This document shows positions 8,210-64,000 of a stretch of 64,000 bases of DNA, in pieces; position 1 is the first letter of the stretch, and each line of letters opens with the position of its first letter. Source of the DNA: Rhodothermales bacterium. Lineage in GTDB: Bacteria > Bacteroidota > Rhodothermia > Rhodothermales > UBA10348. The notes beneath the pieces are model-generated. The model searched no databases, was not told the origin of the DNA, and saw only the letters and a list, made by a program, of their open reading frames with translations. Location: contig CBDFGO010000003.1 in NCBI GenBank assembly GCA_965247125.1, positions 6,058-70,057 of the forward strand. Direction: 5' to 3'. A program made the translations under genes and the position numbers.

Positions 8210-9593
8210 GAGCTATGCCCAAAAGTTGTGTATGGAAGGTTTAGGCAGCGTGTCGTTCTGATGTAATTCCGTCGGTGAATTTGATTCCTTTTTTTACAAG
8301 TTGCAATAGGTGCGGTGCATTCAGTTTCCTCCACTTCTTCTGAGCCTCTTTACATAGACGGAAGGCCATTGCAAGAGCTGTTTCTCGGCTCAGACATCCC
8401 CTCGTTTTGGCGGTCCTGAGGCGCACGGTCGCGAACGTAGATTCGATCGGATTTGTGCTCCGAAGATGGATCCAGTGTTCTGCCGGAAAGTCATAAAAAG
8501 CGAGCAGTTCTTCTCGGTCTTTCACCAGAATCTCTGCTGCTTTCGGATACTTTTGCTGGTAGGCTTTGATGAAAAACAGAAGGGCGCTCTCTGCCTGCTT
8601 TTTTGTTTCTGCTGTATAGATCTGCGTGAGGTGACCTTTTGCCTTCTTCTGAACGGACTTGGGCAGGCGGTTGAGCACATTTGCTGTCTTGTGCACCCAA
8701 CAGCGTGCGGCTCGCGTCTCGGGATAAACTTCTGCGAGAGCACTCCAGAATCCCATGGCTCCATCGGCAACAGCCAGCTTCGGTCCTTGATCCAGCCCGC
8801 GGTGCCTCAGCTCCAGGAGCAACTCTCGCCACGACTGCTTGCTCTCGCGAAAGCCGTCCTCGAGTGCTATAAGCTCCTTCCTTCCATCGGCCGTAGCGCC
8901 GATCACGACCAGCAGACACAGTTTCTGTTTATCCATGCGTACGTTTACGTGAATACCGTCGGCCCAGAAATAGACGTAGTGCTTCTCCTTCAGGCTCCGC
9001 TTTTGCCAGTCTTCGTGCTCCCTTGTCCAAAGCGTCTTCAGGCGCGCAATCGTCGAGGAGGTCAGCCCTGGGGCATCAGGACCAACAAGGGCCGAGAGCG
9101 CTGCCTCAAAGCCGCCCGTTGAAACTCCCTTCAGGTACAACCATGGAATGAGAGCCTCAAGCGAGCGGCTCTTGCGGAGGTAGGCTGGTAGTATCGAACT
9201 GCGGAAACCGATTCTATCCTCACCCCGACCCGTACGGTCGCGTATGCGGGGCATCTTTACAGCGACCTCCCCGATACCAGTCAAAATCTTCCTCTCTGGC
9301 AGATATCCATTGCGAACGATGCGGTGGCGATTCTCTTCGTCGCGCAGGAACTGGTAGCGCTGGCAGAAAGCTTCAACCTCGGCCTCAACGGCTGTGGCCA
9401 GCATCTTTGCGGCCCCTGTTCGCAATACTTCTGTCAACACATCCTCTGTGCTATTGTAGTTCTCGTTCTCGTGTGCGTTATTCGTCTTCATGGGCGGTGT
9501 ATCCTCCAATCTTCGGATTGACAATGACGTAATCATCATCAGGATACGCCGCCTATACCTTTTTCACCCGTACACAACTTTCGGGGTTAACTC
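8210..9593 (-). mobile_element. IS256-family IS, copy 1, inserted into the terminus of IS3-A2.
   Basis: 1384 bp. Imperfect 26-bp IRs: GAGCTATGCCCAAAAGTTGTGTATGG versus the reverse complement GAGTTAACCCCGAAAGTTGTGTACGG. A 9-bp target duplication AACTGGACA flanks both sides. Confidence 0.9.
8241..9539 (-). CDS. IS256-family (mutator-type) transposase, 432 aa.
   Basis: Mutator-type core: LLVVIGATADGRKELIALEDGF...WRELLLELRHRGL...LAVADGAMGFWSALAEVYPETRAARCWVHKTANVLNRLPK. Confidence 0.9.
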   Translation of the reverse strand: MMITSLSIRRLEDTPPMKTNNAHENENYNSTEDVLTEVLRTGAAKMLATAVEAEVEAFCQRYQFLRDEENRHRIVRNGYLPERKILTGIGEVAVKMPRIRDRTGRGEDRIGFRSSILPAYLRKSRSLEALIPWLYLKGVSTGGFEAALSALVGPDAPGLTSSTIARLKTLWTREHEDWQKRSLKEKHYVYFWADGIHVNVRMDKQKLCLLVVIGATADGRKELIALEDGFRESKQSWRELLLELRHRGLDQGPKLAVADGAMGFWSALAEVYPETRAARCWVHKTANVLNRLPKSVQKKAKGHLTQIYTAETKKQAESALLFFIKAYQQKYPKAAEILVKDREELLAFYDFPAEHWIHLRSTNPIESTFATVRLRTAKTRGCLSRETALAMAFRLCKEAQKKWRKLNAPHLLQLVKKGIKFTDGITSERHAA

Positions 9594-10848
9594 AACTGGA
9601 CAGGGTCTTAGGTGGAATCTTGCGGATTGATTATGCTGCTTCTTGAAGCGGCTGGTGATTAAAAAATACGTGATCAGGGGTCTTTCTTCCATGTGAGCTG
9701 TGTCGCCTTTCGTTATTGAAGTAGTCGAAGTATACAGCAATGGATTTGCGGGCTTCAGCCACACTGTCATAGGCTTTAAGGTACACCTCTTCATATTTCA
9801 GGCTACGCCACAGACGTTCAACGAACACGTTGTCCATCCAGCGTCCTTTGCCATCCATAGAGATTTTGATGTCATGATTCTTCAGCACATCAGTAAAGGC
9901 CACGGATGTGAACTGGCTGCCCTGATCCGTATTGAAGATCTCTGGCGCTCCATACACGGCGATTGCTTCTTCGAGCGCTTCCACACAGAAGTCGGTGTCC
10001 ATCGTATTGGAGATCCGGCGTGAGAGTACTTTTCGGCTGTACCAGTCGATGACGGCGACCAGGTAAACGAATCCCCTTTTCATCGGAATGAATGTGATGT
10101 CGCTTGCGTAAACCTGCCGGGGCCGCGTCACGTTGAGCTTACGCAAGAGATACGGATAAATCTTGTGACCCTTTCCCGGAATCGAGGTCCGTTTCTTAGG
10201 ATAAATGGCAATAAGGCCCATCAGACGCATTAATCGCCGGATTCGATGGCGGCCCACAAAAATACCTCTGTCCTCGAGCGCATCCTTCATGGTGCGCGAT
10301 CCTCGCGTGGGCCGCTCAAGGTAGAGCTCATCCAGTTTTTTCATCACGGCCAGGTTCTCTTTGCTCTCGCCCACCGGCTTGTAGTAGGCCGTTGAGCGAT
10401 TCAGCTCCAGCAGATTGCACTGCCGTTTGATGGAGAGGTCGTGGATTGGGTCGATCATTTGGCGGCGCTCACCTACTGGGTGCGACCGAGCGCTTTGGAT
10501 AAAAAATCCTTCTCCATCGAAAGCTCGCCAATCTTGGCGCGAAGCTCCTTGATCTGGCCCTCCTCGTTGTGCTTTCTGGAATGCCCTTTGTCAAAGACCT
10601 CTTCAGCGTCCTGAATCAATTTCTTCTTCCAGGTCTGAATCTGATTCGGGTGCACCTGGAATTGGTCTGCCAACTCGGCCATCGTGCGGTCTCCCTTAAC
10701 CGCCGCCAGTGCTACTTTTGCTTTGAAGGCATTGCTGTGATTTCTTCTTTTGCGACTCATCGTTTGTAGCCTTTCTTGAGGGTGATGAGATCGCAAGATT
10801 CCACCTATAATCAGAGCCAGGCTGTCCAGTCAAACGGGACCATCTCTC
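9594..10848 (-). mobile_element. IS3-family copy A2. Its other terminal 25 bp lie at 8185-8209, separated from the body by the IS256 copy-1 insertion.
   Basis: orfB 9631-10458 and orfA 10473-10796 are nearly identical to copy A1 (P/S and Y/H differences). The element terminus AGAGATGGTCCTATAAAACTGGACAG appears on both sides of the IS256 with the duplicated AACTGGACA. Confidence 0.85.
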
Positions 10849-10882
10849 AAAGCCTATTCTAGTCCCTTCCTTTTTCAACTCC

Positions 10883-15860: not shown

Positions 15861-15861
15861 T

Positions 15862-16798: not shown

Positions 16799-18182
16799 GA
16801 GCTATGCCCAAAAGTTGTGTATGGAAGGTTTAGGCAGCGTGTCGTTCTGATGTAATTCCGTCGGTGAATTTGATTCCTTTTTTTACAAGTTGCAATAGGT
16901 GCGGTGCATTCAGTTTCCTCCACTTCTTCTGAGCCTCTTTACATAGACGGAAGGCCATTGCAAGAGCTGTTTCTCGGCTCAGACATCCCCTCGTTTTGGC
17001 GGTCCTGAGGCGCACGGTCGCGAACGTAGATTCGATCGGATTTGTGCTCCGAAGATGGATCCAGTGTTCTGCCGGAAAGTCATAAAAAGCGAGCAGTTCT
17101 TCTCGGTCTTTCACCAGAATCTCTGCTGCTTTCGGATACTTTTGCTGGTAGGCTTTGATGAAAAACAGAAGGGCGCTCTCTGCCTGCTTTTTTGTTTCTG
17201 CTGTATAGATCTGCGTGAGGTGACCTTTTGCCTTCTTCTGAACGGACTTGGGCAGGCGGTTGAGCACATTTGCTGTCTTGTGCACCCAACAGCGTGCGGC
17301 TCGCGTCTCGGGATAAACTTCTGCGAGAGCACTCCAGAATCCCATGGCTCCATCGGCAACAGCCAGCTTCGGTCCTTGATCCAGCCCGCGGTGCCTCAGC
17401 TCCAGGAGCAACTCTCGCCACGACTGCTTGCTCTCGCGAAAGCCGTCCTCGAGTGCTATAAGCTCCTTCCTTCCATCGGCCGTAGCGCCGATCACGACCA
17501 GCAGACACAGTTTCTGTTTATCCATGCGTACGTTTACGTGAATACCGTCGGCCCAGAAATAGACGTAGTGCTTCTCCTTCAGGCTCCGCTTTTGCCAGTC
17601 TTCGTGCTCCCTTGTCCAAAGCGTCTTCAGGCGCGCAATCGTCGAGGAGGTCAGCCCTGGGGCATCAGGACCAACAAGGGCCGAGAGCGCTGCCCCAAAG
17701 CCGCCCGTTGAAACTCCCTTCAGGTACAACCATGGAATGAGAGCCTCAAGCGAGCGGCTCTTGCGGAGGTAGGCTGGTAGTATCGAACTGCGGAAACCGA
17801 TTCTATCCTCACCCCGACCCGTACGGTCGCGTATGCGGGGCATCTTTACAGCGACCTCCCCGATACCAGTCAAAATCTTCCTCTCTGGCAGATATCCATT
17901 GCGAACGATGCGGTGGCGATTCTCTTCGTCGCGCAGGAACTGGTAGCGCTGGCAGAAAGCTTCAACCTCGGCCTCAACGGCTGTGGCCAGCATCTTTGCG
18001 GCCCCTGTTCGCAATACTTCTGTCAACACATCCTCTGTGCTATTGTAGTTCTCGTTCTCGTGTGCGTTATTCGTCTTCATGGGCGGTGTATCCTCCAATC
18101 TTCGGATTGACAATGACGTAATCATCATCAGGATACGCCGCCTATACCTTTTTCACCCGTACACAACTTTCGGGGTTAACTC
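16799..18182 (-). mobile_element. IS256-family IS, copy 2.
   Basis: Same 1384-bp element; the transposase carries an E-to-G substitution (GGFGAAL). No recognisable target duplication. Confidence 0.9.
16830..18128 (-). CDS. IS256-family transposase.
   Basis: 432 aa, identical apart from one substitution. Confidence 0.9.
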   Translation of the reverse strand: MMITSLSIRRLEDTPPMKTNNAHENENYNSTEDVLTEVLRTGAAKMLATAVEAEVEAFCQRYQFLRDEENRHRIVRNGYLPERKILTGIGEVAVKMPRIRDRTGRGEDRIGFRSSILPAYLRKSRSLEALIPWLYLKGVSTGGFGAALSALVGPDAPGLTSSTIARLKTLWTREHEDWQKRSLKEKHYVYFWADGIHVNVRMDKQKLCLLVVIGATADGRKELIALEDGFRESKQSWRELLLELRHRGLDQGPKLAVADGAMGFWSALAEVYPETRAARCWVHKTANVLNRLPKSVQKKAKGHLTQIYTAETKKQAESALLFFIKAYQQKYPKAAEILVKDREELLAFYDFPAEHWIHLRSTNPIESTFATVRLRTAKTRGCLSRETALAMAFRLCKEAQKKWRKLNAPHLLQLVKKGIKFTDGITSERHAA

Positions 18183-24014: not shown

Positions 24015-25398
24015 GAGCTATGCCCAAAAGTTGTGTATGGAAGGTTTAGGCAGCGTGTCGTTCTGATGTAATTCCGTCGGTGAATTTGATTCCTTTTTTT
24101 ACAAGTTGCAATAGGTGCGGTGCATTCAGTTTCCTCCACTTCTTCTGAGCCTCTTTACATAGACGGAAGGCCATTGCAAGAGCTGTTTCTCGGCTCAGAC
24201 ATCCCCTCGTTTTGGCGGTCCTGAGGCGCACGGTCGCGAACGTAGATTCGATCGGATTTGTGCTCCGAAGATGGATCCAGTGTTCTGCCGGAAAGTCATA
24301 AAAAGCGAGCAGTTCTTCTCGGTCTTTCACCAGAATCTCTGCTGCTTTCGGATACTTTTGCTGGTAGGCTTTGATGAAAAACAGAAGGGCGCTCTCTGCC
24401 TGCTTTTTTGTTTCTGCTGTATAGATCTGCGTGAGGTGACCTTTTGCCTTCTTCTGAACGGACTTGGGCAGGCGGTTGAGCACATTTGCTGTCTTGTGCA
24501 CCCAACAGCGTGCGGCTCGCGTCTCGGGATAAACTTCTGCGAGAGCACTCCAGAATCCCATGGCTCCATCGGCAACAGCCAGCTTCGGTCCTTGATCCAG
24601 CCCGCGGTGCCTCAGCTCCAGGAGCAACTCTCGCCACGACTGCTTGCTCTCGCGAAAGCCGTCCTCGAGTGCTATAAGCTCCTTCCTTCCATCGGCCGTA
24701 GCGCCGATCACGACCAGCAGACACAGTTTCTGTTTATCCATGCGTACGTTTACGTGAATACCGTCGGCCCAGAAATAGACGTAGTGCTTCTCCTTCAGGC
24801 TCCGCTTTTGCCAGTCTTCGTGCTCCCTTGTCCAAAGCGTCTTCAGGCGCGCAATCGTCGAGGAGGTCAGCCCTGGGGCATCAGGACCAACAAGGGCCGA
24901 GAGCGCTGCCTCAAAGCCGCCCGTTGAAACTCCCTTCAGGTACAACCATGGAATGAGAGCCTCAAGCGAGCGGCTCTTGCGGAGGTAGGCTGGTAGTATC
25001 GAACTGCGGAAACCGATTCTATCCTCACCCCGACCCGTACGGTCGCGTATGCGGGGCATCTTTACAGCGACCTCCCCGATACCAGTCAAAATCTTCCTCT
25101 CTGGCAGATATCCATTGCGAACGATGCGGTGGCGATTCTCTTCGTCGCGCAGGAACTGGTAGCGCTGGCAGAAAGCTTCAACCTCGGCCTCAACGGCTGT
25201 GGCCAGCATCTTTGCGGCCCCTGTTCGCAATACTTCTGTCAACACATCCTCTGTGCTATTGTAGTTCTCGTTCTCGTGTGCGTTATTCGTCTTCATGGGC
25301 GGTGTATCCTCCAATCTTCGGATTGACAATGACGTAATCATCATCAGGATACGCCGCCTATACCTTTTTCACCCGTACACAACTTTCGGGGTTAACTC
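24015..25398 (-). mobile_element. IS256-family IS, copy 3.
   Basis: Identical 1384-bp element with no target duplication. Confidence 0.9.
24046..25344 (-). CDS. IS256-family transposase.
   Basis: 432 aa. Confidence 0.9.
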   Translation of the reverse strand: MMITSLSIRRLEDTPPMKTNNAHENENYNSTEDVLTEVLRTGAAKMLATAVEAEVEAFCQRYQFLRDEENRHRIVRNGYLPERKILTGIGEVAVKMPRIRDRTGRGEDRIGFRSSILPAYLRKSRSLEALIPWLYLKGVSTGGFEAALSALVGPDAPGLTSSTIARLKTLWTREHEDWQKRSLKEKHYVYFWADGIHVNVRMDKQKLCLLVVIGATADGRKELIALEDGFRESKQSWRELLLELRHRGLDQGPKLAVADGAMGFWSALAEVYPETRAARCWVHKTANVLNRLPKSVQKKAKGHLTQIYTAETKKQAESALLFFIKAYQQKYPKAAEILVKDREELLAFYDFPAEHWIHLRSTNPIESTFATVRLRTAKTRGCLSRETALAMAFRLCKEAQKKWRKLNAPHLLQLVKKGIKFTDGITSERHAA

Positions 25399-26860: not shown

Positions 26861-28244
26861 GAGCTATGCCCAAAAGTTGTGTATGGAAGGTTTAGGCAGC
26901 GTGTCGTTCTGATGTAATTCCGTCGGTGAATTTGATTCCTTTTTTTACAAGTTGCAATAGGTGCGGTGCATTCAGTTTCCTCCACTTCTTCTGAGCCTCT
27001 TTACATAGACGGAAGGCCATTGCAAGAGCTGTTTCTCGGCTCAGACATCCCCTCGTTTTGGCGGTCCTGAGGCGCACGGTCGCGAACGTAGATTCGATCG
27101 GATTTGTGCTCCGAAGATGGATCCAGTGTTCTGCCGGAAAGTCATAAAAAGCGAGCAGTTCTTCTCGGTCTTTCACCAGAATCTCTGCTGCTTTCGGATA
27201 CTTTTGCTGGTAGGCTTTGATGAAAAACAGAAGGGCGCTCTCTGCCTGCTTTTTTGTTTCTGCTGTATAGATCTGCGTGAGGTGACCTTTTGCCTTCTTC
27301 TGAACGGACTTGGGCAGGCGGTTGAGCACATTTGCTGTCTTGTGCACCCAACAGCGTGCGGCTCGCGTCTCGGGATAAACTTCTGCGAGAGCACTCCAGA
27401 ATCCCATGGCTCCATCGGCAACAGCCAGCTTCGGTCCTTGATCCAGCCCGCGGTGCCTCAGCTCCAGGAGCAACTCTCGCCACGACTGCTTGCTCTCGCG
27501 AAAGCCGTCCTCGAGTGCTATAAGCTCCTTCCTTCCATCGGCCGTAGCGCCGATCACGACCAGCAGACACAGTTTCTGTTTATCCATGCGTACGTTTACG
27601 TGAATACCGTCGGCCCAGAAATAGACGTAGTGCTTCTCCTTCAGGCTCCGCTTTTGCCAGTCTTCGTGCTCCCTTGTCCAAAGCGTCTTCAGGCGCGCAA
27701 TCGTCGAGGAGGTCAGCCCTGGGGCATCAGGACCAACAAGGGCCGAGAGCGCTGCCTCAAAGCCGCCCGTTGAAACTCCCTTCAGGTACAACCATGGAAT
27801 GAGAGCCTCAAGCGAGCGGCTCTTGCGGAGGTAGGCTGGTAGTATCGAACTGCGGAAACCGATTCTATCCTCACCCCGACCCGTACGGTCGCGTATGCGG
27901 GGCATCTTTACAGCGACCTCCCCGATACCAGTCAAAATCTTCCTCTCTGGCAGATATCCATTGCGAACGATGCGGTGGCGATTCTCTTCGTCGCGCAGGA
28001 ACTGGTAGCGCTGGCAGAAAGCTTCAACCTCGGCCTCAACGGCTGTGGCCAGCATCTTTGCGGCCCCTGTTCGCAATACTTCTGTCAACACATCCTCTGT
28101 GCTATTGTAGTTCTCGTTCTCGTGTGCGTTATTCGTCTTCATGGGCGGTGTATCCTCCAATCTTCGGATTGACAATGACGTAATCATCATCAGGATACGC
28201 CGCCTATACCTTTTTCACCCGTACACAACTTTCGGGGTTAACTC
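26861..28244 (-). mobile_element. IS256-family IS, copy 4.
   Basis: Identical element, same orientation as copy 3, with no target duplication. Confidence 0.9.
26892..28190 (-). CDS. IS256-family transposase.
   Basis: 432 aa. Confidence 0.9.
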   Translation of the reverse strand: MMITSLSIRRLEDTPPMKTNNAHENENYNSTEDVLTEVLRTGAAKMLATAVEAEVEAFCQRYQFLRDEENRHRIVRNGYLPERKILTGIGEVAVKMPRIRDRTGRGEDRIGFRSSILPAYLRKSRSLEALIPWLYLKGVSTGGFEAALSALVGPDAPGLTSSTIARLKTLWTREHEDWQKRSLKEKHYVYFWADGIHVNVRMDKQKLCLLVVIGATADGRKELIALEDGFRESKQSWRELLLELRHRGLDQGPKLAVADGAMGFWSALAEVYPETRAARCWVHKTANVLNRLPKSVQKKAKGHLTQIYTAETKKQAESALLFFIKAYQQKYPKAAEILVKDREELLAFYDFPAEHWIHLRSTNPIESTFATVRLRTAKTRGCLSRETALAMAFRLCKEAQKKWRKLNAPHLLQLVKKGIKFTDGITSERHAA

Positions 28245-28968
28245 GTTCGTTCCTGCTACAGTACCAGTACTGCTGACTCTTAGAGCCAACACCGAAGTTC
28301 ACAGTTCACTGGAAAAACTGTCCGATTTCAATGGCTGGCTATTCAGAAACGTCCAACGCGAAAATCCCCAGATTGCAGACGGAATCCTTCGCTCATTCGA
28401 GATTGAAACCGAACTCGGAAATCGGGAGTCCGTCTCGGCGGATCTTCTCTTGGAATACGCGCCAGGTTCGGTCTGGGGCTCGGATTTTACGTTTCGCCGC
28501 TACAGCTTTCGAGGCTCGTTCAAGCTAAAGACTTTTTACCGAAGGCGCAGTCGACCCAATTGGCTCCGCGTATCGGTTTTGGCCGGCAGGAGCAGCGGTG
28601 ACTTACCGGTTCAAAGGCAGTTTTCAATTACTGGATCGGCGGGCCCGTTCTCTGAATTTACGGGCTTCCGGTCGCTCGGAAAGACGCCTTTCTTGGCCGA
28701 TAAGGTTCTGGGAATATTCTGGACGCACGATTTTACCACGGCACTATTCGAAAAATTCGGGCTTTGGAGACTGGCCGACGGGGGCATGGGGATTCAACTA
28801 TTTGGAGGTCACGGATTTTCTTCCTCCGTCAACTTCGGCGAGTTCAGTAAAAATCATCACGAGTTCGGAGTTGGGCTGTCCTACCCGTTCGGTCTTCCAG
28901 TCAGGCTCGACTTCGCCACAACGAGCAGTGGGGGATTTTTCTTTCGATTAGGAAAATCGCTTCGTTGA
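28245..28968 (+). pseudogene. C-terminal beta-barrel fragment of an Omp85/BamA-family outer-membrane protein, N-terminally truncated by IS256 copy 4.
   Basis: ...GRSSGDLPVQRQFSITGSAGPFSEFTGFRSLG...FFFRLGKSLR is a typical Omp85 barrel C-terminus. The first ~35 residues of the listed ORF are IS-encoded. Confidence 0.5.
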
Positions 28969-29099
28969 CGCACCGTGGTCAAGGATCGAGGTCCTGCGAA
29001 AAGGGCCTTCTGAGCTAATTTGCAGGTATGACAAAAAGGTGTCATACCCTGTCTCTATCATGGAATCAAGCGAGACAATAATTCTTCGATTACGACACC

Positions 29100-41554: not shown

Positions 41555-41597
41555 AACGAAAAAACGCCCTAACACACTGCAATGCAGTGGTTAGGGC
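41555..41597 (-). terminator. Rho-independent terminator on the minus strand.
   Basis: Minus strand reads GCCCTAACCACTGC-ATT-GCAGTGTGTTAGGGC followed by TTTTTT. It terminates a transcript originating in the 41600-41790 noncoding region. Confidence 0.5.
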
Positions 41598-41796
41598 GAA
41601 TGGGCTGACTAAAGAGTGTGGAGCTAAGGAGAGTCGAACCTTATCTCGGTTTCGCGAACGTTTCGCTGGATATCATGCCTATATGGGCGTTACAGAGTGA
41701 AATTTCTCTGGACCGTTTCTAACATATTGCAAATCTAGAAAAAATCCGTCACCTTATCCGTCACCTATTTCATTTAAGTTAACCCCCATTACACCG

Positions 41797-44345: not shown

Positions 44346-45729
44346 GAGTTAACCCCGAAAGTTGTGTACGGGTGAAAAAGGTATAGGCGGCGTATCCTGA
44401 TGATGATTACGTCATTGTCAATCCGAAGATTGGAGGATACACCGCCCATGAAGACGAATAACGCACACGAGAACGAGAACTACAATAGCACAGAGGATGT
44501 GTTGACAGAAGTATTGCGAACAGGGGCCGCAAAGATGCTGGCCACAGCCGTTGAGGCCGAGGTTGAAGCTTTCTGCCAGCGCTACCAGTTCCTGCGCGAC
44601 GAAGAGAATCGCCACCGCATCGTTCGCAATGGATATCTGCCAGAGAGGAAGATTTTGACTGGTATCGGGGAGGTCGCTGTAAAGATGCCCCGCATACGCG
44701 ACCGTACGGGTCGGGGTGAGGATAGAATCGGTTTCCGCAGTTCGATACTACCAGCCTACCTCCGCAAGAGCCGCTCGCTTGAGGCTCTCATTCCATGGTT
44801 GTACCTGAAGGGAGTTTCAACGGGCGGCTTTGAGGCAGCGCTCTCGGCCCTTGTTGGTCCTGATGCCCCAGGGCTGACCTCCTCGACGATTGCGCGCCTG
44901 AAGACGCTTTGGACAAGGGAGCACGAAGACTGGCAAAAGCGGAGCCTGAAGGAGAAGCACTACGTCTATTTCTGGGCCGACGGTATTCACGTAAACGTAC
45001 GCATGGATAAACAGAAACTGTGTCTGCTGGTCGTGATCGGCGCTACGGCCGATGGAAGGAAGGAGCTTATAGCACTCGAGGACGGCTTTCGCGAGAGCAA
45101 GCAGTCGTGGCGAGAGTTGCTCCTGGAGCTGAGGCACCGCGGGCTGGATCAAGGACCGAAGCTGGCTGTTGCCGATGGAGCCATGGGATTCTGGAGTGCT
45201 CTCGCAGAAGTTTATCCCGAGACGCGAGCCGCACGCTGTTGGGTGCACAAGACAGCAAATGTGCTCAACCGCCTGCCCAAGTCCGTTCAGAAGAAGGCAA
45301 AAGGTCACCTCACGCAGATCTATACAGCAGAAACAAAAAAGCAGGCAGAGAGCGCCCTTCTGTTTTTCATCAAAGCCTACCAGCAAAAGTATCCGAAAGC
45401 AGCAGAGATTCTGGTGAAAGACCGAGAAGAACTGCTCGCTTTTTATGACTTTCCGGCAGAACACTGGATCCATCTTCGGAGCACAAATCCGATCGAATCT
45501 ACGTTCGCGACCGTGCGCCTCAGGACCGCCAAAACGAGGGGATGTCTGAGCCGAGAAACAGCTCTTGCAATGGCCTTCCGTCTATGTAAAGAGGCCCAGA
45601 AGAAGTGGAGGAAACTGAATGCACCGCACCTATTGCAACTTGTAAAAAAAGGAATCAAATTCACCGACGGAATTACATCAGAACGACACGCTGCCTAAAC
45701 CTTCCATACACAACTTTTGGGCATAGCTC
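44346..45729 (+). mobile_element. IS256-family IS, copy 6, inserted in the 3' part of the FtsX permease gene.
   Basis: 9-bp target duplication TACTCCAAC on both sides. Confidence 0.9.
44400..45698 (+). CDS. IS256-family transposase.
   Basis: 432 aa. Confidence 0.9.
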   Translation: MMITSLSIRRLEDTPPMKTNNAHENENYNSTEDVLTEVLRTGAAKMLATAVEAEVEAFCQRYQFLRDEENRHRIVRNGYLPERKILTGIGEVAVKMPRIRDRTGRGEDRIGFRSSILPAYLRKSRSLEALIPWLYLKGVSTGGFEAALSALVGPDAPGLTSSTIARLKTLWTREHEDWQKRSLKEKHYVYFWADGIHVNVRMDKQKLCLLVVIGATADGRKELIALEDGFRESKQSWRELLLELRHRGLDQGPKLAVADGAMGFWSALAEVYPETRAARCWVHKTANVLNRLPKSVQKKAKGHLTQIYTAETKKQAESALLFFIKAYQQKYPKAAEILVKDREELLAFYDFPAEHWIHLRSTNPIESTFATVRLRTAKTRGCLSRETALAMAFRLCKEAQKKWRKLNAPHLLQLVKKGIKFTDGITSERHAA

Positions 45730-47793: not shown

Positions 47794-49029
47794 ATGCTAA
47801 AAAGTAGAACTGTGAACACACTTCGTGAACTGGCCGCTGACGGTCACTCCATCCGGGAGATCAGCAAACGCATGGGGCTTTCTCGTAACACTGTCCGTAA
47901 GTACTTGCGGACCATACCGGTGCCTGCTCCTCGGCCTAAACGGTATTCCAAACTGGAACCCTTCAAAGAGCAGGTTCGCCGTTGGGTACTCGAGGATCGA
48001 CTCCTCAACTGCGTGACCATGCATGAACGACTGCAGGTGATGGGATATAGCGGGGGCCTGACGATCCTGAAAGATTATGTTCGGCCACTTCGTCCGGCGA
48101 AAGGAGGCCGCCGACCGGTTCGGCGCTATGAGACCGATCCTGGCGAGCAGATGCAGATCGATTGGGGAACCTTTATGTACGAAGTAGGAGGTGTTCGCAA
48201 GAAGATCTACGGCATGACGGCGGTCATGAGTTACTCGCGCATGCGATATGTTATCTTCTCGAAGCGTTGCGACACAGCCAGTCTGATTCGTGCCATCCAA
48301 GACGCGCTGGAATACTTTGGTGGCCTGCCACAGACCATCCTGAGTGATCGCATGAAGAGTGTGCTGCTCACGGTCGAAGACGGACAATTCATCTGGAACA
48401 GTGTTTATGCCGATTTTTTAGCCGCGATTGGCGTAGTGCCACGGGTGTGTCGCTCGAGAGTGCCACAGACGAAGGGAAAGGTCGAACGCTCCATCCGGGT
48501 CATCAAAGAGAGCTTCTGGCCCGGTGTGCGCTTTGGCGATGTTGGCCACCTCAACGAACAGGCCAGAATCTGGTACACATCCCGCAACTCACGTCTTCAC
48601 CGAACGACACATGAGCGGCCCGATGAGCGACACCAGAGGGAAAAACTGAGCTCCTTGCCTGTGGGCTACGCATGGGAACGATTCCGGAGTGAGCCTAGGC
48701 GAGTAACGTGGGATGGCTTTATCTCCTTTGACGGCGTACTCTACGGCCTTCCGAGCGAACCACTGACGGCCGGCGACCTGGTCGATGTCACCTACCGCGA
48801 TCAGGAGATCCTCGTCTGGTACAAAGGACACCTCGTCGTTCGTCACCGAGTGCGCCACGAGTCCGGACTAACGGTCTGGCATGCGGACCAGTTTAAAACG
48901 ATTCCACCCGCAGCTGAGAGCCACCGCTTGCCCGCTCCCGTTGCATACCAGGTGCCCTCCATTGAAGCGCCGCGTCGCTCGCTCACCGAGTATGATGATC
49001 TCTTCAAGGCGCAAGAGGTTGTGATATGA
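47794..49029 (+). CDS. istA: IS21 transposase IstA.
   Basis: N-terminal HTH (HSIREISKRMGLSRNTVRKYL) and DDE core. Confidence 0.85.
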   Translation: MLKSRTVNTLRELAADGHSIREISKRMGLSRNTVRKYLRTIPVPAPRPKRYSKLEPFKEQVRRWVLEDRLLNCVTMHERLQVMGYSGGLTILKDYVRPLRPAKGGRRPVRRYETDPGEQMQIDWGTFMYEVGGVRKKIYGMTAVMSYSRMRYVIFSKRCDTASLIRAIQDALEYFGGLPQTILSDRMKSVLLTVEDGQFIWNSVYADFLAAIGVVPRVCRSRVPQTKGKVERSIRVIKESFWPGVRFGDVGHLNEQARIWYTSRNSRLHRTTHERPDERHQREKLSSLPVGYAWERFRSEPRRVTWDGFISFDGVLYGLPSEPLTAGDLVDVTYRDQEILVWYKGHLVVRHRVRHESGLTVWHADQFKTIPPAAESHRLPAPVAYQVPSIEAPRRSLTEYDDLFKAQEVVI

Positions 49030-49793
49030 GCACGACCCTTGCCATTGATGATCTTCTGCGCCGCCTACGTCTTGGACAGTTGGCTTCGCAGCTTCCAGAG
49101 CTGATCGAAGGAGCGCGGCAGCAGAAACTATCGTACGAACGATTCCTGGCCTCCGTTCTCGAGACCGAACTGCGTGGACGCGACGATCGTGCACTCGTGC
49201 GCCGGATGCGTTCGGCCCGCTTACCCCTGAAAGCCCGTTTAGAGACCTTCGACTTTGCCTTCCAGCCCTCGATCTCTGAGCGCCTGGTTGGCGAACTGGC
49301 GCAAGGATCCTATCTCGATACGGCTACTAACGTAATCCTGCTCGGGCCACCGGGCGTGGGAAAGACCCATCTGGCCTGTGCGCTCGCCGTTAAAGCTATC
49401 GAGAGCGGACATACGGCACGCTTTACAACGCTTCGCTCATTGATCACGGATCTGGGAGGACTCGGACGACGTGAGGTCAAGACGCTGCGGGCGTATCTAA
49501 AACCAGATTTGTTGATCATTGATGAGATTGGTTATTCCCAGCTCAGTCCCGATAACGCTAACAGTCTCTTCGAACTTATCACCGCACGATATGAACGTGG
49601 ATCCATCATCCTGACGAGTAATCTCTCCTTCAATGACTGGGGCAACCTGCTCGGAGACGATGTCCTGGCGACTGCCATGCTCGACCGTCTGCTGCACCAC
49701 GCCGAGGTCATCACCATTAACGGACGCTCCTACAGAATGCGTAACCACATAGAAAACGATCAACCATCCACCGCCGTGGGTGGGTCAATTTAA
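49026..49793 (+). CDS. istB: IS21 helper ATPase IstB.
   Basis: Walker A LLGPPGVGKTHLA and Walker B LLIIDEIG. Confidence 0.9.
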   Translation: MSTTLAIDDLLRRLRLGQLASQLPELIEGARQQKLSYERFLASVLETELRGRDDRALVRRMRSARLPLKARLETFDFAFQPSISERLVGELAQGSYLDTATNVILLGPPGVGKTHLACALAVKAIESGHTARFTTLRSLITDLGGLGRREVKTLRAYLKPDLLIIDEIGYSQLSPDNANSLFELITARYERGSIILTSNLSFNDWGNLLGDDVLATAMLDRLLHHAEVITINGRSYRMRNHIENDQPSTAVGGSI

Positions 49794-50429: not shown

Positions 50430-51813
50430 GAGCTATGCCCAAAAGTTGTGTATGGAAGGTTTAGGCAGCGTGTCGTTCTGATGTAATTCCGTCGGTGAAT
50501 TTGATTCCTTTTTTTACAAGTTGCAATAGGTGCGGTGCATTCAGTTTCCTCCACTTCTTCTGAGCCTCTTTACATAGACGGAAGGCCATTGCAAGAGCTG
50601 TTTCTCGGCTCAGACATCCCCTCGTTTTGGCGGTCCTGAGGCGCACGGTCGCGAACGTAGATTCGATCGGATTTGTGCTCCGAAGATGGATCCAGTGTTC
50701 TGCCGGAAAGTCATAAAAAGCGAGCAGTTCTTCTCGGTCTTTCACCAGAATCTCTGCTGCTTTCGGATACTTTTGCTGGTAGGCTTTGATGAAAAACAGA
50801 AGGGCGCTCTCTGCCTGCTTTTTTGTTTCTGCTGTATAGATCTGCGTGAGGTGACCTTTTGCCTTCTTCTGAACGGACTTGGGCAGGCGGTTGAGCACAT
50901 TTGCTGTCTTGTGCACCCAACAGCGTGCGGCTCGCGTCTCGGGATAAACTTCTGCGAGAGCACTCCAGAATCCCATGGCTCCATCGGCAACAGCCAGCTT
51001 CGGTCCTTGATCCAGCCCGCGGTGCCTCAGCTCCAGGAGCAACTCTCGCCACGACTGCTTGCTCTCGCGAAAGCCGTCCTCGAGTGCTATAAGCTCCTTC
51101 CTTCCATCGGCCGTAGCGCCGATCACGACCAGCAGACACAGTTTCTGTTTATCCATGCGTACGTTTACGTGAATACCGTCGGCCCAGAAATAGACGTAGT
51201 GCTTCTCCTTCAGGCTCCGCTTTTGCCAGTCTTCGTGCTCCCTTGTCCAAAGCGTCTTCAGGCGCGCAATCGTCGAGGAGGTCAGCCCTGGGGCATCAGG
51301 ACCAACAAGGGCCGAGAGCGCTGCCTCAAAGCCGCCCGTTGAAACTCCCTTCAGGTACAACCATGGAATGAGAGCCTCAAGCGAGCGGCTCTTGCGGAGG
51401 TAGGCTGGTAGTATCGAACTGCGGAAACCGATTCTATCCTCACCCCGACCCGTACGGTCGCGTATGCGGGGCATCTTTACAGCGACCTCCCCGATACCAG
51501 TCAAAATCTTCCTCTCTGGCAGATATCCATTGCGAACGATGCGGTGGCGATTCTCTTCGTCGCGCAGGAACTGGTAGCGCTGGCAGAAAGCTTCAACCTC
51601 GGCCTCAACGGCTGTGGCCAGCATCTTTGCGGCCCCTGTTCGCAATACTTCTGTCAACACATCCTCTGTGCTATTGTAGTTCTCGTTCTCGTGTGCGTTA
51701 TTCGTCTTCATGGGCGGTGTATCCTCCAATCTTCGGATTGACAATGACGTAATCATCATCAGGATACGCCGCCTATACCTTTTTCACCCGTACACAACTT
51801 TCGGGGTTAACTC
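50430..51813 (-). mobile_element. IS256-family IS, copy 7.
   Basis: 9-bp target duplication CTGCTAAAT. Confidence 0.9.
50461..51759 (-). CDS. IS256-family transposase.
   Basis: 432 aa. Confidence 0.9.
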   Translation of the reverse strand: MMITSLSIRRLEDTPPMKTNNAHENENYNSTEDVLTEVLRTGAAKMLATAVEAEVEAFCQRYQFLRDEENRHRIVRNGYLPERKILTGIGEVAVKMPRIRDRTGRGEDRIGFRSSILPAYLRKSRSLEALIPWLYLKGVSTGGFEAALSALVGPDAPGLTSSTIARLKTLWTREHEDWQKRSLKEKHYVYFWADGIHVNVRMDKQKLCLLVVIGATADGRKELIALEDGFRESKQSWRELLLELRHRGLDQGPKLAVADGAMGFWSALAEVYPETRAARCWVHKTANVLNRLPKSVQKKAKGHLTQIYTAETKKQAESALLFFIKAYQQKYPKAAEILVKDREELLAFYDFPAEHWIHLRSTNPIESTFATVRLRTAKTRGCLSRETALAMAFRLCKEAQKKWRKLNAPHLLQLVKKGIKFTDGITSERHAA

Positions 51814-52486: not shown

Positions 52487-53870
52487 GAGTTAACCCCGAA
52501 AGTTGTGTACGGGTGAAAAAGGTATAGGCGGCGTATCCTGATGATGATTACGTCATTGTCAATCCGAAGATTGGAGGATACACCGCCCATGAAGACGAAT
52601 AACGCACACGAGAACGAGAACTACAATAGCACAGAGGATGTGTTGACAGAAGTATTGCGAACAGGGGCCGCAAAGATGCTGGCCACAGCCGTTGAGGCCG
52701 AGGTTGAAGCTTTCTGCCAGCGCTACCAGTTCCTGCGCGACGAAGAGAATCGCCACCGCATCGTTCGCAATGGATATCTGCCAGAGAGGAAGATTTTGAC
52801 TGGTATCGGGGAGGTCGCTGTAAAGATGCCCCGCATACGCGACCGTACGGGTCGGGGTGAGGATAGAATCGGTTTCCGCAGTTCGATACTACCAGCCTAC
52901 CTCCGCAAGAGCCGCTCGCTTGAGGCTCTCATTCCATGGTTGTACCTGAAGGGAGTTTCAACGGGCGGCTTTGAGGCAGCGCTCTCGGCCCTTGTTGGTC
53001 CTGATGCCCCAGGGCTGACCTCCTCGACGATTGCGCGCCTGAAGACGCTTTGGACAAGGGAGCACGAAGACTGGCAAAAGCGGAGCCTGAAGGAGAAGCA
53101 CTACGTCTATTTCTGGGCCGACGGTATTCACGTAAACGTACGCATGGATAAACAGAAACTGTGTCTGCTGGTCGTGATCGGCGCTACGGCCGATGGAAGG
53201 AAGGAGCTTATAGCACTCGAGGACGGCTTTCGCGAGAGCAAGCAGTCGTGGCGAGAGTTGCTCCTGGAGCTGAGGCACCGCGGGCTGGATCAAGGACCGA
53301 AGCTGGCTGTTGCCGATGGAGCCATGGGATTCTGGAGTGCTCTCGCAGAAGTTTATCCCGAGACGCGAGCCGCACGCTGTTGGGTGCACAAGACAGCAAA
53401 TGTGCTCAACCGCCTGCCCAAGTCCGTTCAGAAGAAGGCAAAAGGTCACCTCACGCAGATCTATACAGCAGAAACAAAAAAGCAGGCAGAGAGCGCCCTT
53501 CTGTTTTTCATCAAAGCCTACCAGCAAAAGTATCCGAAAGCAGCAGAGATTCTGGTGAAAGACCGAGAAGAACTGCTCGCTTTTTATGGCTTTCCGGCAG
53601 AACACTGGATCCATCTTCGGAGCACAAATCCGATCGAATCTACGTTCGCGACCGTGCGCCTCAGGACCGCCAAAACGAGGGGATGTCTGAGCCGAGAAAC
53701 AGCTCTTGCAATGGCCTTCCGTCTATGTAAAGAGGCCCAGAAGAAGTGGAGGAAACTGAATGCACCGCACCTATTGCAACTTGTAAAAAAAGGAATCAAA
53801 TTCACCGACGGAATTACATCAGAACGACACGCTGCCTAAACCTTCCATACACAACTTTTGGGCATAGCTC
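52487..53870 (+). mobile_element. IS256-family IS, copy 8.
   Basis: No clean target duplication. The transposase carries a D-to-G substitution (FYGFPAEHW). Confidence 0.9.
52541..53839 (+). CDS. IS256-family transposase.
   Basis: 432 aa. Confidence 0.9.
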   Translation: MMITSLSIRRLEDTPPMKTNNAHENENYNSTEDVLTEVLRTGAAKMLATAVEAEVEAFCQRYQFLRDEENRHRIVRNGYLPERKILTGIGEVAVKMPRIRDRTGRGEDRIGFRSSILPAYLRKSRSLEALIPWLYLKGVSTGGFEAALSALVGPDAPGLTSSTIARLKTLWTREHEDWQKRSLKEKHYVYFWADGIHVNVRMDKQKLCLLVVIGATADGRKELIALEDGFRESKQSWRELLLELRHRGLDQGPKLAVADGAMGFWSALAEVYPETRAARCWVHKTANVLNRLPKSVQKKAKGHLTQIYTAETKKQAESALLFFIKAYQQKYPKAAEILVKDREELLAFYGFPAEHWIHLRSTNPIESTFATVRLRTAKTRGCLSRETALAMAFRLCKEAQKKWRKLNAPHLLQLVKKGIKFTDGITSERHAA

Positions 53871-54430: not shown

Positions 54431-55814
54431 GAGCTATGCCCAAAAGTTGTGTATGGAAGGTTTAGGCAGCGTGTCGTTCTGATGTAATTCCGTCGGTGAA
54501 TTTGATTCCTTTTTTTACAAGTTGCAATAGGTGCGGTGCATTCAGTTTCCTCCACTTCTTCTGAGCCTCTTTACATAGACGGAAGGCCATTGCAAGAGCT
54601 GTTTCTCGGCTCAGACATCCCCTCGTTTTGGCGGTCCTGAGGCGCACGGTCGCGAACGTAGATTCGATCGGATTTGTGCTCCGAAGATGGATCCAGTGTT
54701 CTGCCGGAAAGTCATAAAAAGCGAGCAGTTCTTCTCGGTCTTTCACCAGAATCTCTGCTGCTTTCGGATACTTTTGCTGGTAGGCTTTGATGAAAAACAG
54801 AAGGGCGCTCTCTGCCTGCTTTTTTGTTTCTGCTGTATAGATCTGCGTGAGGTGACCTTTTGCCTTCTTCTGAACGGACTTGGGCAGGCGGTTGAGCACA
54901 TTTGCTGTCTTGTGCACCCAACAGCGTGCGGCTCGCGTCTCGGGATAAACTTCTGCGAGAGCACTCCAGAATCCCATGGCTCCATCGGCAACAGCCAGCT
55001 TCGGTCCTTGATCCAGCCCGCGGTGCCTCAGCTCCAGGAGCAACTCTCGCCACGACTGCTTGCTCTCGCGAAAGCCGTCCTCGAGTGCTATAAGCTCCTT
55101 CCTTCCATCGGCCGTAGCGCCGATCACGACCAGCAGACACAGTTTCTGTTTATCCATGCGTACGTTTACGTGAATACCGTCGGCCCAGAAATAGACGTAG
55201 TGCTTCTCCTGCAGGCTCCGCTTTTGCCAGTCTTCGTGCTCCCTTGTCCAAAGCGTCTTCAGGCGCGCAATCGTCGAGGAGGTCAGCCCTGGGGCATCAG
55301 GACCAACAAGGGCCGAGAGCGCTGCCTCAAAGCCGCCCGTTGAAACTCCCTTCAGGTACAACCATGGAATGAGAGCCTCAAGCGAGCGGCTCTTGCGGAG
55401 GTAGGCTGGTAGTATCGAACTGCGGAAACCGATTCTATCCTCACCCCGACCCGTACGGTCGCGTATGCGGGGCATCTTTACAGCGACCTCCCCGATACCA
55501 GTCAAAATCTTCCTCTCTGGCAGATATCCATTGCGAACGATGCGGTGGCGATTCTCTTCGCCGCGCAGGAACTGGTAGCGCTGGCAGAAAGCTTCAACCT
55601 CGGCCTCAACGGCTGTGGCCAGCATCTTTGCGGCCCCTGTTCGCAATACTTCTGTCAACACATCCTCTGTGCTATTGTAGTTCTCGTTCTCGTGTGCGTT
55701 ATTCGTCTTCATGGGCGGTGTATCCTCCAATCTTCGGATTGACAATGACGTAATCATCATCAGGATACGCCGCCTATACCTTTTTCACCCGTACACAACT
55801 TTCGGGGTTAACTC
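54431..55814 (-). mobile_element. IS256-family IS, copy 9, inserted into the ATPase gene of the 54308-59172 cassette.
   Basis: 9-bp target duplication GAGAATCAC. The transposase carries three substitutions (D-to-G, K-to-Q, V-to-A). Coordinates are anchored on the ORF; my line count differs by 2 bp. Confidence 0.9.
54462..55760 (-). CDS. IS256-family transposase.
   Basis: 432 aa. Confidence 0.9.
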   Translation of the reverse strand: MMITSLSIRRLEDTPPMKTNNAHENENYNSTEDVLTEVLRTGAAKMLATAVEAEVEAFCQRYQFLRGEENRHRIVRNGYLPERKILTGIGEVAVKMPRIRDRTGRGEDRIGFRSSILPAYLRKSRSLEALIPWLYLKGVSTGGFEAALSALVGPDAPGLTSSTIARLKTLWTREHEDWQKRSLQEKHYVYFWADGIHVNVRMDKQKLCLLVVIGATADGRKELIALEDGFRESKQSWRELLLELRHRGLDQGPKLAVADGAMGFWSALAEVYPETRAARCWVHKTANVLNRLPKSVQKKAKGHLTQIYTAETKKQAESALLFFIKAYQQKYPKAAEILVKDREELLAFYDFPAEHWIHLRSTNPIESTFATVRLRTAKTRGCLSRETALAMAFRLCKEAQKKWRKLNAPHLLQLVKKGIKFTDGITSERHAA

Positions 55815-62763: not shown

Positions 62764-62774
62764 AATTGGTCAAG

Positions 62775-63236
62775 TTATTCTTCCACCTGATTGTAGAAAG
62801 GTATGGGTGTGGCGCCTGGCCAATTTCGACCGGGCGCATTATGACTGTGCAATCTGTTCCCACCTTTTGTGGCAAAAGGACGGGCACCTCGACGTCGAAA
62901 AGCGTTGGTGACTTTTTTTGATGGATGTTTTGGTTCGCCATTAACAGCTACGGATACTAGGGCTGTTTTAATTCTTTCATCCGTGTTGAGTCTCGGTCCA
63001 ACAATTCGATCTAGAATTGCAGGGCCAATGTTTCGCTTACTTCCATGATGAGGGACTTGTATGAAATGTGTTTGAGAGAGATCGATTCCAGCATTGTCAC
63101 ATAGCTCAATAACTTGCGTTAATGCTGGTATTCCCGCATCTGCTGTAAAAAGTGACCTGTGACCATCTACAGTCAGTAACAAAACGGTACTTGTATTATT
63201 TCTTGGACTGGTTTCTCCTTCGTTGGTTAAGGTTTG
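62775..63236 (-). pseudogene. MBL-fold metallo-hydrolase C-terminal fragment (ComEC/YycJ-like ...VPHHGSKRN tail), N-terminally truncated by IS256 copy 10.
   Basis: ...HFIQVPHHGSKRNIGPAILD. The upstream reading frame runs into the IS256 left end at 63237. Confidence 0.45.
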
Positions 63237-64000
63237 GAGCTATGCCCAAAAGTTGTGTATGGAAGGTTTAGGCAGCGTGTCGTTCTGATGTAATTCCGTC
63301 GGTGAATTTGATTCCTTTTTTTACAAGTTGCAATAGGTGCGGTGCATTCAGTTTCCTCCACTTCTTCTGAGCCTCTTTACATAGACGGAAGGCCATTGCA
63401 AGAGCTGTTTCTCGGCTCAGACATCCCCTCGTTTTGGCGGTCCTGAGGCGCACGGTCGCGAACGTAGATTCGATCGGATTTGTGCTCCGAAGATGGATCC
63501 AGTGTTCTGCCGGAAAGTCATAAAAAGCGAGCAGTTCTTCTCGGTCTTTCACCAGAATCTCTGCTGCTTTCGGATACTTTTGCTGGTAGGCTTTGATGAA
63601 AAACAGAAGGGCGCTCTCTGCCTGCTTTTTTGTTTCTGCTGTATAGATCTGCGTGAGGTGACCTTTTGCCTTCTTCTGAACGGACTTGGGCAGGCGGTTG
63701 AGCACATTTGCTGTCTTGTGCACCCAACAGCGTGCGGCTCGCGTCTCGGGATAAACTTCTGCGAGAGCACTCCAGAATCCCATGGCTCCATCGGCAACAG
63801 CCAGCTTCGGTCCTTGATCCAGCCCGCGGTGCCTCAGCTCCAGGAGCAACTCTCGCCACGACTGCTTGCTCTCGCGAAAGCCGTCCTCGAGTGCTATAAG
63901 CTCCTTCCTTCCATCGGCCGTAGCGCCGATCACGACCAGCAGACACAGTTTCTGTTTATCCATGCGTACGTTTACGTGAATACCGTCGGCCCAGAAATAG
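63237..64000 (-). mobile_element. IS256-family IS, copy 10, truncated by the window edge.
   Basis: GAGCTATGCCCAAAAGTTGTGTATGG left end at 63237. The transposase ORF continues past the window end. Confidence 0.9.

What the first reader, a model, noticed from the sequence alone, without database searches (positions are those of the whole stretch)
8210..64000. IS256-family burst: ten near-identical 1384-bp copies in 64 kb
Copies are about 99.8% identical, differing by a handful of A-to-G type substitutions (E-to-G in copy 2, D-to-G in copy 8, three changes in copy 9). Copies 1, 6, 7 and 9 keep perfect 9-bp duplications (AACTGGACA, TACTCCAAC, CTGCTAAAT, GAGAATCAC), and copies 6, 7 and 9 interrupt ORFs that rejoin in frame; these are recent simple insertions. 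Copies 2, 3, 4, 5 and 8 lack duplications, implying inter-copy recombination or deletion. Density of this order suggests an IS-expansion hotspot, or a genome under relaxed selection such as a recent host restriction or small population.
Basis: seen in the sequence. Interest (0 to 1): 0.6.

Follow-up and report, generated by a model that had tools for sequence, protein, structure and literature searches.

The report
Recent IS256-family insertion sequence expansion
A previously unnamed but otherwise typical IS256-family jumping gene has recently multiplied to ten near-identical copies in the mobile-DNA-rich parts of a 64-kb stretch of an uncultured Rhodothermales chromosome, which is real but ordinary biology.

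Summary
The window has nine complete 1384-bp copies and one copy cut by the window end. They are 99.4-100% identical and make up 20.7% of the window. Each has an intact 416/432-aa DDE transposase that passes NCBI's IS256 model, 26-bp imperfect terminal repeats, and in four copies a perfect 9-bp target duplication. Removing copies 6, 7 and 9 restores ORFs of 709, 194 and 490 aa. The five copies without duplications mostly abut cut features: a conserved gene reduced to its last 240 aa, half an integrase, a cut IS3, and a gene fragment open at both ends. This fits IS-mediated deletion or rearrangement.

The host is a Rhodothermales genome, probably a long-read MAG. All ten copies lie in accessory DNA that also carries IS3, IS110, IS21 and IS5 elements, integrase fragments and defence-like genes. 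IS-derived DNA is at least 38% of the window. A 13-kb conserved backbone, 92% identical to two sister genomes, has no IS.

Protein-cluster data put the element and the other IS families on at least three large contigs, so the IS load is genome-wide, probably with local enrichment here. Host restriction is untested.

Verdict: new member of a known kind, low interest.

The parts
8210..9593 (-). IS256-family copy 1. Consensus sequence. 9-bp duplication AACTGGACA at 8201-8209 and 9594-9602. Inserted 28 nt from the end of IS3-like copy B. Transposase CDS 8241-9539 (432 aa), or 8241-9491 from the more likely start (416 aa).
16799..18182 (-). Copy 2. One change (E145G). No target duplication.
24015..25398 (-). 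Copy 3. Consensus. No duplication. Its left flank cuts ORF 21997-24014. Its right flank is a 1462-bp Reprolysin-like gene fragment (25399-26860, minus strand) that is open at both ends.
26861..28244 (-). Copy 4. Consensus. No duplication. Its right flank (28246-28968) is only the C-terminal 240 aa of a gene that is 806-955 aa in related Rhodothermales.
42664..44047 (+). Copy 5. One silent change plus a converted left end. No duplication. Abuts a tyrosine-integrase gene (41797-42663) that lacks its catalytic half.
42664..42689 (+). Left terminal repeat of copy 5. It carries the right-end sequence GAGCTATGCCCAAAAGTTGTGTATGG (5 substitutions at positions 4, 7, 8, 12 and 24), giving perfect 26-bp inverted ends.
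44346..45729 (+). Copy 6. One silent change, T1251C. Duplication TACTCCAAC at 44337-44345 and 45730-45738. Interrupts a membrane-protein ORF that is 709 aa (stop-to-stop frame) when restored.
50430..51813 (-). Copy 7. Consensus. Duplication CTGCTAAAT at 50421-50429 and 51814-51822. Interrupts an ORF that is 194 aa (stop-to-stop frame) when restored.
52487..53870 (+). Copy 8. D350G plus the T1251C shared with copy 6. No duplication. Abuts a 314-bp end fragment of the IS3-like element (52173-52486).
54431..55814 (-). Copy 9. D67G and K184Q. Duplication GAGAATCAC at 54422-54430 and 55815-55823. Interrupts, at about codon 42, an ORC/CDC6-like ATPase gene (490-aa frame when restored). This is the first gene of a three-gene defence-like cluster.
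63237..64000 (-). Copy 10. First 764 bp only, cut by the window end. Identical to consensus.
28245..41601 (.). IS-free chromosomal backbone: PKD/OmpA, Band 7, esterase, DUF819, MoeB/ThiF, DUF5916 and pentapeptide genes. Positions 29025-40951 are 92.4% identical to two sister genomes. Positions 33341-40951 are 86.8% identical to GTDB MAG contig CALBJU010000198.
5881..7152 (+). Context: IS3-family element, copy A. Other copies are B (8182-8209 plus 9594-10848, split by IS256 copy 1), C (19733-20998, 90% identical) and fragment D (52173-52486).
47794..49793 (+). Context: IS21-family istA/istB pair. A second, unrelated IS21 lies at 59516-62033. Also present: IS110 transposase 14580-15584 (-), IS5 fragment 18696-19157, frameshifted IS3 11228-12125, and integrase fragment 12100-12633 (-).

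Best explanation
The repeat is a new, autonomous insertion sequence of the IS256 family. It is 1384 bp long, has one DDE transposase gene and 26-bp imperfect terminal repeats, and makes 9-bp target duplications. It has been transposing recently in a Rhodothermales chromosome.

By analogy with IS256 and ISCth4, it most likely moves by copy-out/paste-in. One end attacks the same strand just outside the other end. Replication then releases a double-stranded circle in which the two ends are joined through a spacer of a few bp. The circle integrates with a staggered cut that gives the 9-bp duplication. This mechanism is inferred, not shown here.

Copies pile up in this window because most of it is dispensable accessory DNA where insertions cost little: other IS elements, remnants of integrative elements, toxin-antitoxin genes and defence-like genes. 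Possibly daughters also land near their parents.

Once several identical copies lay close together, they recombined or underwent transposase-mediated intramolecular events. This deleted or moved the DNA between them and left hybrid copies without duplications, next to truncated genes.
For: Family membership:
- Pfam Transposase_mut E=1e-64.
- NCBIfam IS256 equivalog 307.8 bits against a cutoff of 150.
- Alignment to the ISCth4 transposase structure 6xg8, E=2.6e-30, with residues D194, D259, E366 and C280-x-x-H283 in place.

Recency:
- Five of ten copies are identical and the rest differ by 1-2 substitutions. All nine complete copies have intact ORFs, and there are no fragments or solo ends.
- Coding changes are 4 non-synonymous to 2 synonymous, as expected without selection on individual copies.
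- Copies 6 and 8 share a derived change. Copy 9 adds D67G to a K184Q lineage that is found alone on other contigs. So there were several rounds of transposition, not one event.

True insertions:
- Four perfect 9-bp duplications and three restored ORFs.
- The Pfam score of the ORC/CDC6-like gene doubles after restoration, from 40 to 80 bits.

Rearrangement:
- Copy 4 abuts the last 240 aa of a gene that is 806-955 aa in relatives, and the missing part is not in the window.
- Copy 5 abuts half an integrase.
- Copy 8 abuts a cut IS3.
- The 1462 bp between copies 3 and 4 is a gene piece with neither start nor stop.

Location:
- All copies lie outside the 13.4-kb backbone shared with sister genomes.
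- IS-derived DNA is at least 37.9% of the window.

Genome-wide picture:
- I count nine non-consensus full-length transposase variants for this genome. This assumes the 6 of 21 cluster members not listed are alternative-start duplicates of listed ones. Three of the nine are in this window. The others are on the 2.0-Mb, 1.58-Mb and 0.8-Mb contigs.
Against: - No reads are available, so the joins at the five copies without duplications cannot be checked against mis-assembly.
- The genome itself could not be retrieved. The copy number of roughly 30 and the 'enrichment' are extrapolated from protein-variant counts, with 6 of 21 cluster members not listed.
- The absence of copies from the backbone is not significant on its own: about 0.79^10, or 0.1, for ten random insertions (my arithmetic).
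- No empty-site allele was found in metagenomes.
- Circles, the spacer length and activity are not shown.
Confidence: 0.85

Rival explanations
1. The window is typical of the whole genome. IS elements of many families have expanded everywhere because selection is relaxed, for example after host restriction or a bottleneck. The local density is not special.
For: - The IS256 element, the IS3-like element (34 OrfB variants), IS110 and both IS21 elements all occur on two to four contigs of the assembly.
- The window also shows IS-independent gene loss: a 2.75-kb deletion at 40950 relative to sister genomes, with AGC microhomology.
Against: - Only about nine non-consensus IS256 variants exist genome-wide and three are in this 64 kb. 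This suggests tens of copies, not the ~700 that uniform density would need in a genome of at least 4.4 Mb.
- The backbone block is IS-free.
- Relatives at ~70% protein identity appear, from their isolate names, to be estuarine or Caspian MAGs. Nothing indicates a host.
Confidence: 0.2
2. Some or all copies, or the joins at the five copies without duplications, are assembly artefacts. These could be mis-joins through a shared repeat or chimeras of co-existing strains.
For: - Five of nine complete copies lack duplications, and no reciprocal flank pairs exist in the window.
Against: - Every copy has unique flanks.
- Four copies have exact duplications and three restore ORFs.
- Copies carry private substitutions.
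- Flanks of the copies without duplications are truncated genes, as real deletions would leave.
- A 1.4-kb repeat is short relative to typical long reads (general knowledge).
Confidence: 0.05
3. The copies arose by segmental duplication or as parts of composite transposons, not by independent transposition of the single element.
For: Direct pairs lie close together: copies 3 and 4 are 1462 bp apart, and copies 5 and 6 are 298 bp apart.
Against: - Self-BLAST shows no repeated DNA beyond the element ends.
- The outer flanks of the pairs carry no shared 9-bp duplication.
- Copy 6 has its own duplication.
Confidence: 0.02

Closest known systems
IS256 family insertion sequences (prototype IS256 of staphylococci and enterococci; structurally studied member ISCth4 of Clostridium thermocellum)
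   Same: - Single Mutator-type DDE transposase with a C/DxxH insertion-domain motif.
- Length about 1.4 kb, imperfect terminal repeats of about 26 bp, and 8-9-bp target duplications.
- Many identical copies in one genome.

   Different: - The protein is distant from the structurally studied member ISCth4 (E=2.6e-30).
- The nearest named database proteins are about 60-62% identical.
- The nearest unnamed metagenomic relatives are 73-85% identical.
- By the usual IS naming rule (recalled, not checked against ISfinder) it would receive a new name.
- The host is Rhodothermales. The paper search found nothing on IS256 in that order.
IS expansions with IS-mediated deletion and inversion in other bacteria, such as Shigella, Bordetella pertussis IS481, Yersinia pestis and hospital Enterococcus faecium (own knowledge; see also PMC13216065 and PMC12065110, listed)
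   Same: - Near-identical copies, gene interruption, and copies without duplications at rearrangement endpoints.
- Accumulation in accessory DNA.
   Different: - Here the organism is uncultured and environmental, with no known host.
- Copy number appears moderate (tens), with one very dense neighbourhood.
IS30-type 'network' of copy-out/paste-in pathways, in which IR-IR junctions formed between neighbouring copies give deletions and inversions (PMC9333248, abstract seen)
   Same: It offers a transposase-driven route to the copies without duplications and to the close direct pairs.
   Different: No junction or dimer structure is present in the window. Homologous recombination explains the same facts.

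Membership tests
IS256 family (ISfinder sense) | Transposase of the Mutator/IS256 DDE type | tested here: met
   PF00872 E=1e-64, 219 bits against cutoff 21. NCBIfam NF033543 'IS256 family transposase' equivalog, 307.8 bits against cutoff 150.
IS256 family (ISfinder sense) | Catalytic D, D, E triad and C/DxxH motif in the insertion domain | tested here: met
   The alignment to ISCth4 (6xg8) places D194, D259 and E366 opposite ISCth4 D175, D241 and E348, and C280/H283 opposite its C262 motif. None of the window variants touches these residues.
IS256 family (ISfinder sense) | Single ORF, element about 1.2-1.5 kb, imperfect terminal inverted repeats of a few tens of bp | tested here: met
   1384 bp with one 416/432-aa ORF. 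The 26-bp ends match at 21 of 26 positions.
IS256 family (ISfinder sense) | Target-site duplication of 8-9 bp | tested here: met
   Perfect 9-bp duplications at copies 1, 6, 7 and 9.
IS256 family (ISfinder sense) | Copy-out/paste-in transposition through a circle with abutted ends separated by about 5-7 bp | not testable with these tools
   Needs reads or PCR across an IRR-spacer-IRL junction. The mechanism is taken from IS256 and ISCth4 work.
IS-expansion genome caused by host restriction or relaxed selection | High IS copy number genome-wide, in several families | tested here: inconclusive
   Several IS families occur on 2-4 contigs, and the IS3-like OrfB has 34 variants. Copy numbers cannot be counted because the genome could not be retrieved.
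IS-expansion genome caused by host restriction or relaxed selection | Host-associated lifestyle, widespread pseudogenes, reduced genome | not tested
   There is only one IS-independent 2.75-kb deletion plus the IS-cut genes in the window. No habitat information was available.

The most novel reading that the evidence does not exclude
Copy 5 may be a natural record of the circular transposition intermediate. Its left end (26 nt) has been overwritten with the right-end sequence, exactly over the span where the two ends are homologous. The rest of the element is unchanged.

The left/right difference is conserved in relatives that are 73-85% identical in transposase protein. So this state is derived and not due to chance (P about 4e-11).

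The simplest mechanism is a template switch or heteroduplex correction within the quasi-palindrome formed when the two ends are abutted in the circle junction, or held together in the synaptic complex. If so, such conversions could be used to detect copy-out/paste-in history from genomes alone. They would also show that an element with two right ends can still integrate.
Probability: 0.25. Interest if true: 0.45.

Novelty: new member of a known kind. Interest (0 to 1): 0.25.

Why it matters
The finding documents an active or very recently active IS256-family element in Rhodothermales. It also gives a clear example of how IS copies gather in dispensable island DNA and then erode it through deletions. 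This is useful for annotating the genome and for interpreting long-read MAGs, since short-read MAGs of related organisms are fragmented (the nearest GTDB relative is a 9.5-kb contig) and would probably miss such IS-rich DNA. It does not change what is known about IS biology. The end conversion in copy 5 is the only feature that could interest transposition specialists.

Tried and rejected
- Retrieving the source genome to count copies. The exact-pattern scan of GTDB representatives found nothing. Exact-protein look-ups for window proteins and cluster members found nothing on record.
- Plasmid collection: no match. Viral contigs: none.
- JGI metagenomes: the empty-site allele of copy 6 was not found. 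The terminal-repeat pattern hit only the end of an 87%-related IS.
- Reciprocal flank pairs that would reveal inversions between window copies: none at 7-mer level in any orientation. This includes the inverted pair of copies 4 and 5 that brackets the backbone.
- Composite-transposon reading of the close pairs: rejected because the outer flanks share no duplication.
- The PadR/permease fragment at 13.3-14.4 kb as a relocated piece of the backbone: rejected, since it is only 46% identical to the sister PadR.
- tRNA or other RNA genes as integration sites: none found.
- A-to-G mutational bias: six of six substitutions in the window are at A:T pairs, but variants elsewhere in the genome break the pattern.
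- Literature: nothing on IS256 in Rhodothermales, and nothing on end conversion in prokaryotic IS.
Full report
**Observation**

A repeat search finds seven direct and three inverted copies of one 1384-bp sequence. They are at 8210-9593, 16799-18182, 24015-25398, 26861-28244, 42664-44047, 44346-45729, 50430-51813, 52487-53870 and 54431-55814. A tenth copy starts at 63237 and is cut by the window end. A degenerate search for the 26-nt ends gives exactly 19 matches, with none in shuffled sequence. So there are no solo ends or decayed fragments. Pairwise identity is 99.42-100%, and the copies make up 20.7% of the window.

Removing copies 6, 7 and 9 with one duplication copy restores open frames of 709, 194 and 490 aa.
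- Copy 9 has two changes, D67G and K184Q.
- Copy 6 has a silent change that copy 8 shares.
- Copy 5 has six changes.

**What the element is**

The real start is more likely the internal Met, giving 416 aa. That Met is preceded by GGAGGA, and related elements are called with 415-416 aa.

- The protein matches Pfam Transposase_mut (E=1e-64).
- It matches the NCBIfam IS256 equivalog at 307.8 bits against a cutoff of 150.
- It aligns to the ISCth4 transposase structure 6xg8 (E=2.6e-30).
- In that alignment D194, D259 and E366 lie opposite the catalytic residues reported for ISCth4, and C280-x-x-H283 lies opposite its C/DxxH motif.
- The ends are 26-bp imperfect repeats matching at 21 of 26 positions.

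Together with the 9-bp duplications, every sequence-level feature of the IS256 family is met. The copy-out/paste-in mechanism with a circular intermediate is taken from published work on IS256 and ISCth4 (PMC7780238). It is inferred here, not shown.

The nearest proteins are unnamed metagenomic sequences at 73-85% identity. Named IS256-family transposases are about 60-62% identical. It is therefore a new member of a known family.

**History of the copies**

Five of the ten copies are identical to the consensus, and the others carry one or two private changes. Copies 6 and 8 share T1251C, and copy 8 adds D350G. Copy 9 combines K184Q, a variant that occurs alone on other contigs of the genome, with D67G. 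This is a shallow, star-like tree with small sub-lineages, meaning several recent rounds of transposition from a near-invariant source. Coding changes split 4 non-synonymous to 2 synonymous, as expected when individual copies are not under selection.

**Copies without duplications**

- Copy 4's right flank encodes only the last 240 aa of a protein that is 806-955 aa in related Rhodothermales. The missing part is nowhere in the window.
- Copy 5 abuts a tyrosine-integrase gene that keeps its arm-binding and SAM-like domains but lacks the catalytic half.
- Copy 8 abuts a 314-bp end piece of an IS3-like element.
- The 1462 bp between copies 3 and 4 is an internal piece of a Reprolysin-like peptidase gene, open at both ends.
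- No reciprocal flank pairs exist among window copies. So the partner junctions were deleted or lie elsewhere.

Transposase-mediated intramolecular events would leave the same traces.

**Context**

A T9SS sorting domain and the related loci place the window in Rhodothermales.

- The closest GTDB contig is 86.8% identical over 33341-40951.
- Two sister genomes were recovered through the MoeB/ThiF protein cluster. They are 92.4% identical over 29025-40951 and carry no IS in 21 kb.
- The IS-laden flanks of the window have no counterpart in the sister loci.

The flanks of the window contain:
- an IS3-family element in three copies plus a fragment, with copy 1 of the IS256 element inserted 28 nt from the end of one of them;
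- a second, frameshifted IS3;
- an IS110, an IS5 fragment and two different IS21 elements;
- two integrase fragments;
- a Gp49/HTH toxin-antitoxin-like pair;
- defence-like genes.

IS-derived DNA is at least 37.9% of the window.

**Hotspot or genome-wide?**

The source genome could not be fetched, so the copies cannot be counted directly. Protein-cluster data give indirect evidence.

- Single-copy backbone proteins are on one contig of 2,003,299 bp.
- The transposase cluster has 21 entries. I read these as a consensus, nine non-consensus full-length variants and two truncated forms, mostly recorded twice because of two start calls. Six of the 21 entries were not listed, so this count is an estimate.
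- Three of the nine variants are in this window. The rest are on the 2.0-, 1.58- and 0.8-Mb contigs.
- One third of the window copies are variants. This suggests roughly 30 copies genome-wide, of which the window (about 1.5% of a genome of at least 4.4 Mb) holds about a third. This is a rough extrapolation.
- The IS3-like OrfB has 34 variants, and IS110 and both IS21 elements occur on two or three contigs. So the genome as a whole is IS-rich.

My reading is that both hold: a multi-family IS load across the genome, with strong accumulation in permissive island DNA. Nothing here speaks to host restriction.

**Assembly artefact**

Unique flanks, exact duplications, restored ORFs and private substitutions argue against collapsed or invented copies. 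The five joins without duplications cannot be verified without reads.

**Copy 5's converted end**

The left end of copy 5 (42664-42689) carries five substitutions that make it identical to the right-end sequence. The rest of the element differs from the consensus by one silent change. The left/right asymmetry is conserved in relatives whose transposases are 78-85% identical, so this state is derived. Chance is excluded (about 4e-11).

The converted tract coincides with the span of end-to-end homology. This fits a template switch or mismatch correction between the two ends when they are juxtaposed, as in the circle junction. This is a hypothesis. I found no report of it.

**Verdict**

This is a real, recent expansion of a new IS256-family member in accessory DNA of an IS-rich Rhodothermales genome. 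It is ordinary in kind and useful mainly for annotation. Interest is 0.25.

Noticed in passing
window 42664-42689 (copy 5 left end): Five clustered substitutions convert the left terminal repeat into the right-end sequence, giving perfect 26-bp ends. The left/right asymmetry is conserved in related elements. This may be a template-switch or repair event at the abutted ends of the circle junction.
   Followed up: partly
window 5881-7152, 8182-8209 plus 9594-10848, 19733-20998, 52173-52486: A second recently active IS of the IS3 family, about 1.27 kb, with orfA/orfB. Copies A and B are 99.7% identical and inverted around a T9SS-cargo gene (7195-8103). The first ~40 nt of copy A differ from B and C, so it looks mosaic. 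B and C have 3-bp duplications (TTG, AGG) and A does not. Its OrfB has 34 variants genome-wide.
   Followed up: partly
window 40945-40955, compared with L086 15238-17994: Relative to both sister genomes the window lacks 2.75 kb (a PadR regulator and most of a MacB/FtsX permease gene). The junction shows AGC microhomology and no IS. This is IS-independent gene loss.
   Followed up: partly
window 54305-59172: Three-gene cluster: an ORC/CDC6-like ATPase (disrupted by copy 9), a protein with a weak nucleoside 2-deoxyribosyltransferase match, and a protein matching PADLOC's CARF6 models (E=2.4e-17). It looks like a defence module knocked out by the IS.
   Followed up: partly
window 122-5457: High-GC segment (59-61%, against 51% for the window). 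It encodes a 1177-aa fusion of a metallophosphatase with an SbcC/LmuB-like ATPase, a small HTH protein, a DnaJ-domain protein and a DEDDh exonuclease. It is possibly a horizontally acquired defence or repair module.
   Followed up: no
window 14459-16668: An IS110-family transposase gene (14580-15584, minus strand). NCBIfam calls this family RNA-guided. It lies within a segment bounded by 106-bp direct repeats (14459-14564 and 16563-16668, 91.5% identical) that also holds a Gp49/HTH toxin-antitoxin-like pair.
   Followed up: no
window 41600-41800: Homology with the sister genomes ends right after a terminator-like hairpin at about 41601. The next ~50 nt look to my eye like the 3' end of a tRNA and are followed by the truncated integrase gene, as at an integrative-element attachment site. 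ARAGORN and Rfam give no support.
   Followed up: yes
L082 (ENA ERZ23505103 scaffold_4355): A metagenomic contig carries relatives of both the IS256-type (77% nt) and the IS3-type (74% nt) elements, next to a T9SS-cargo gene. The same pair of IS families therefore co-occurs in another genome, probably a related one.
   Followed up: no
window 29714-30838 and 34433-35599, compared with L085/L086: The PKD/OmpA gene is 374 aa here and 488 aa in the sister genomes, which may reflect repeat-number variation. DUF819 is 388 aa here but is called as a truncated 296-aa gene in the sisters, with a separate 68-aa ORF just upstream of it.
   Followed up: no
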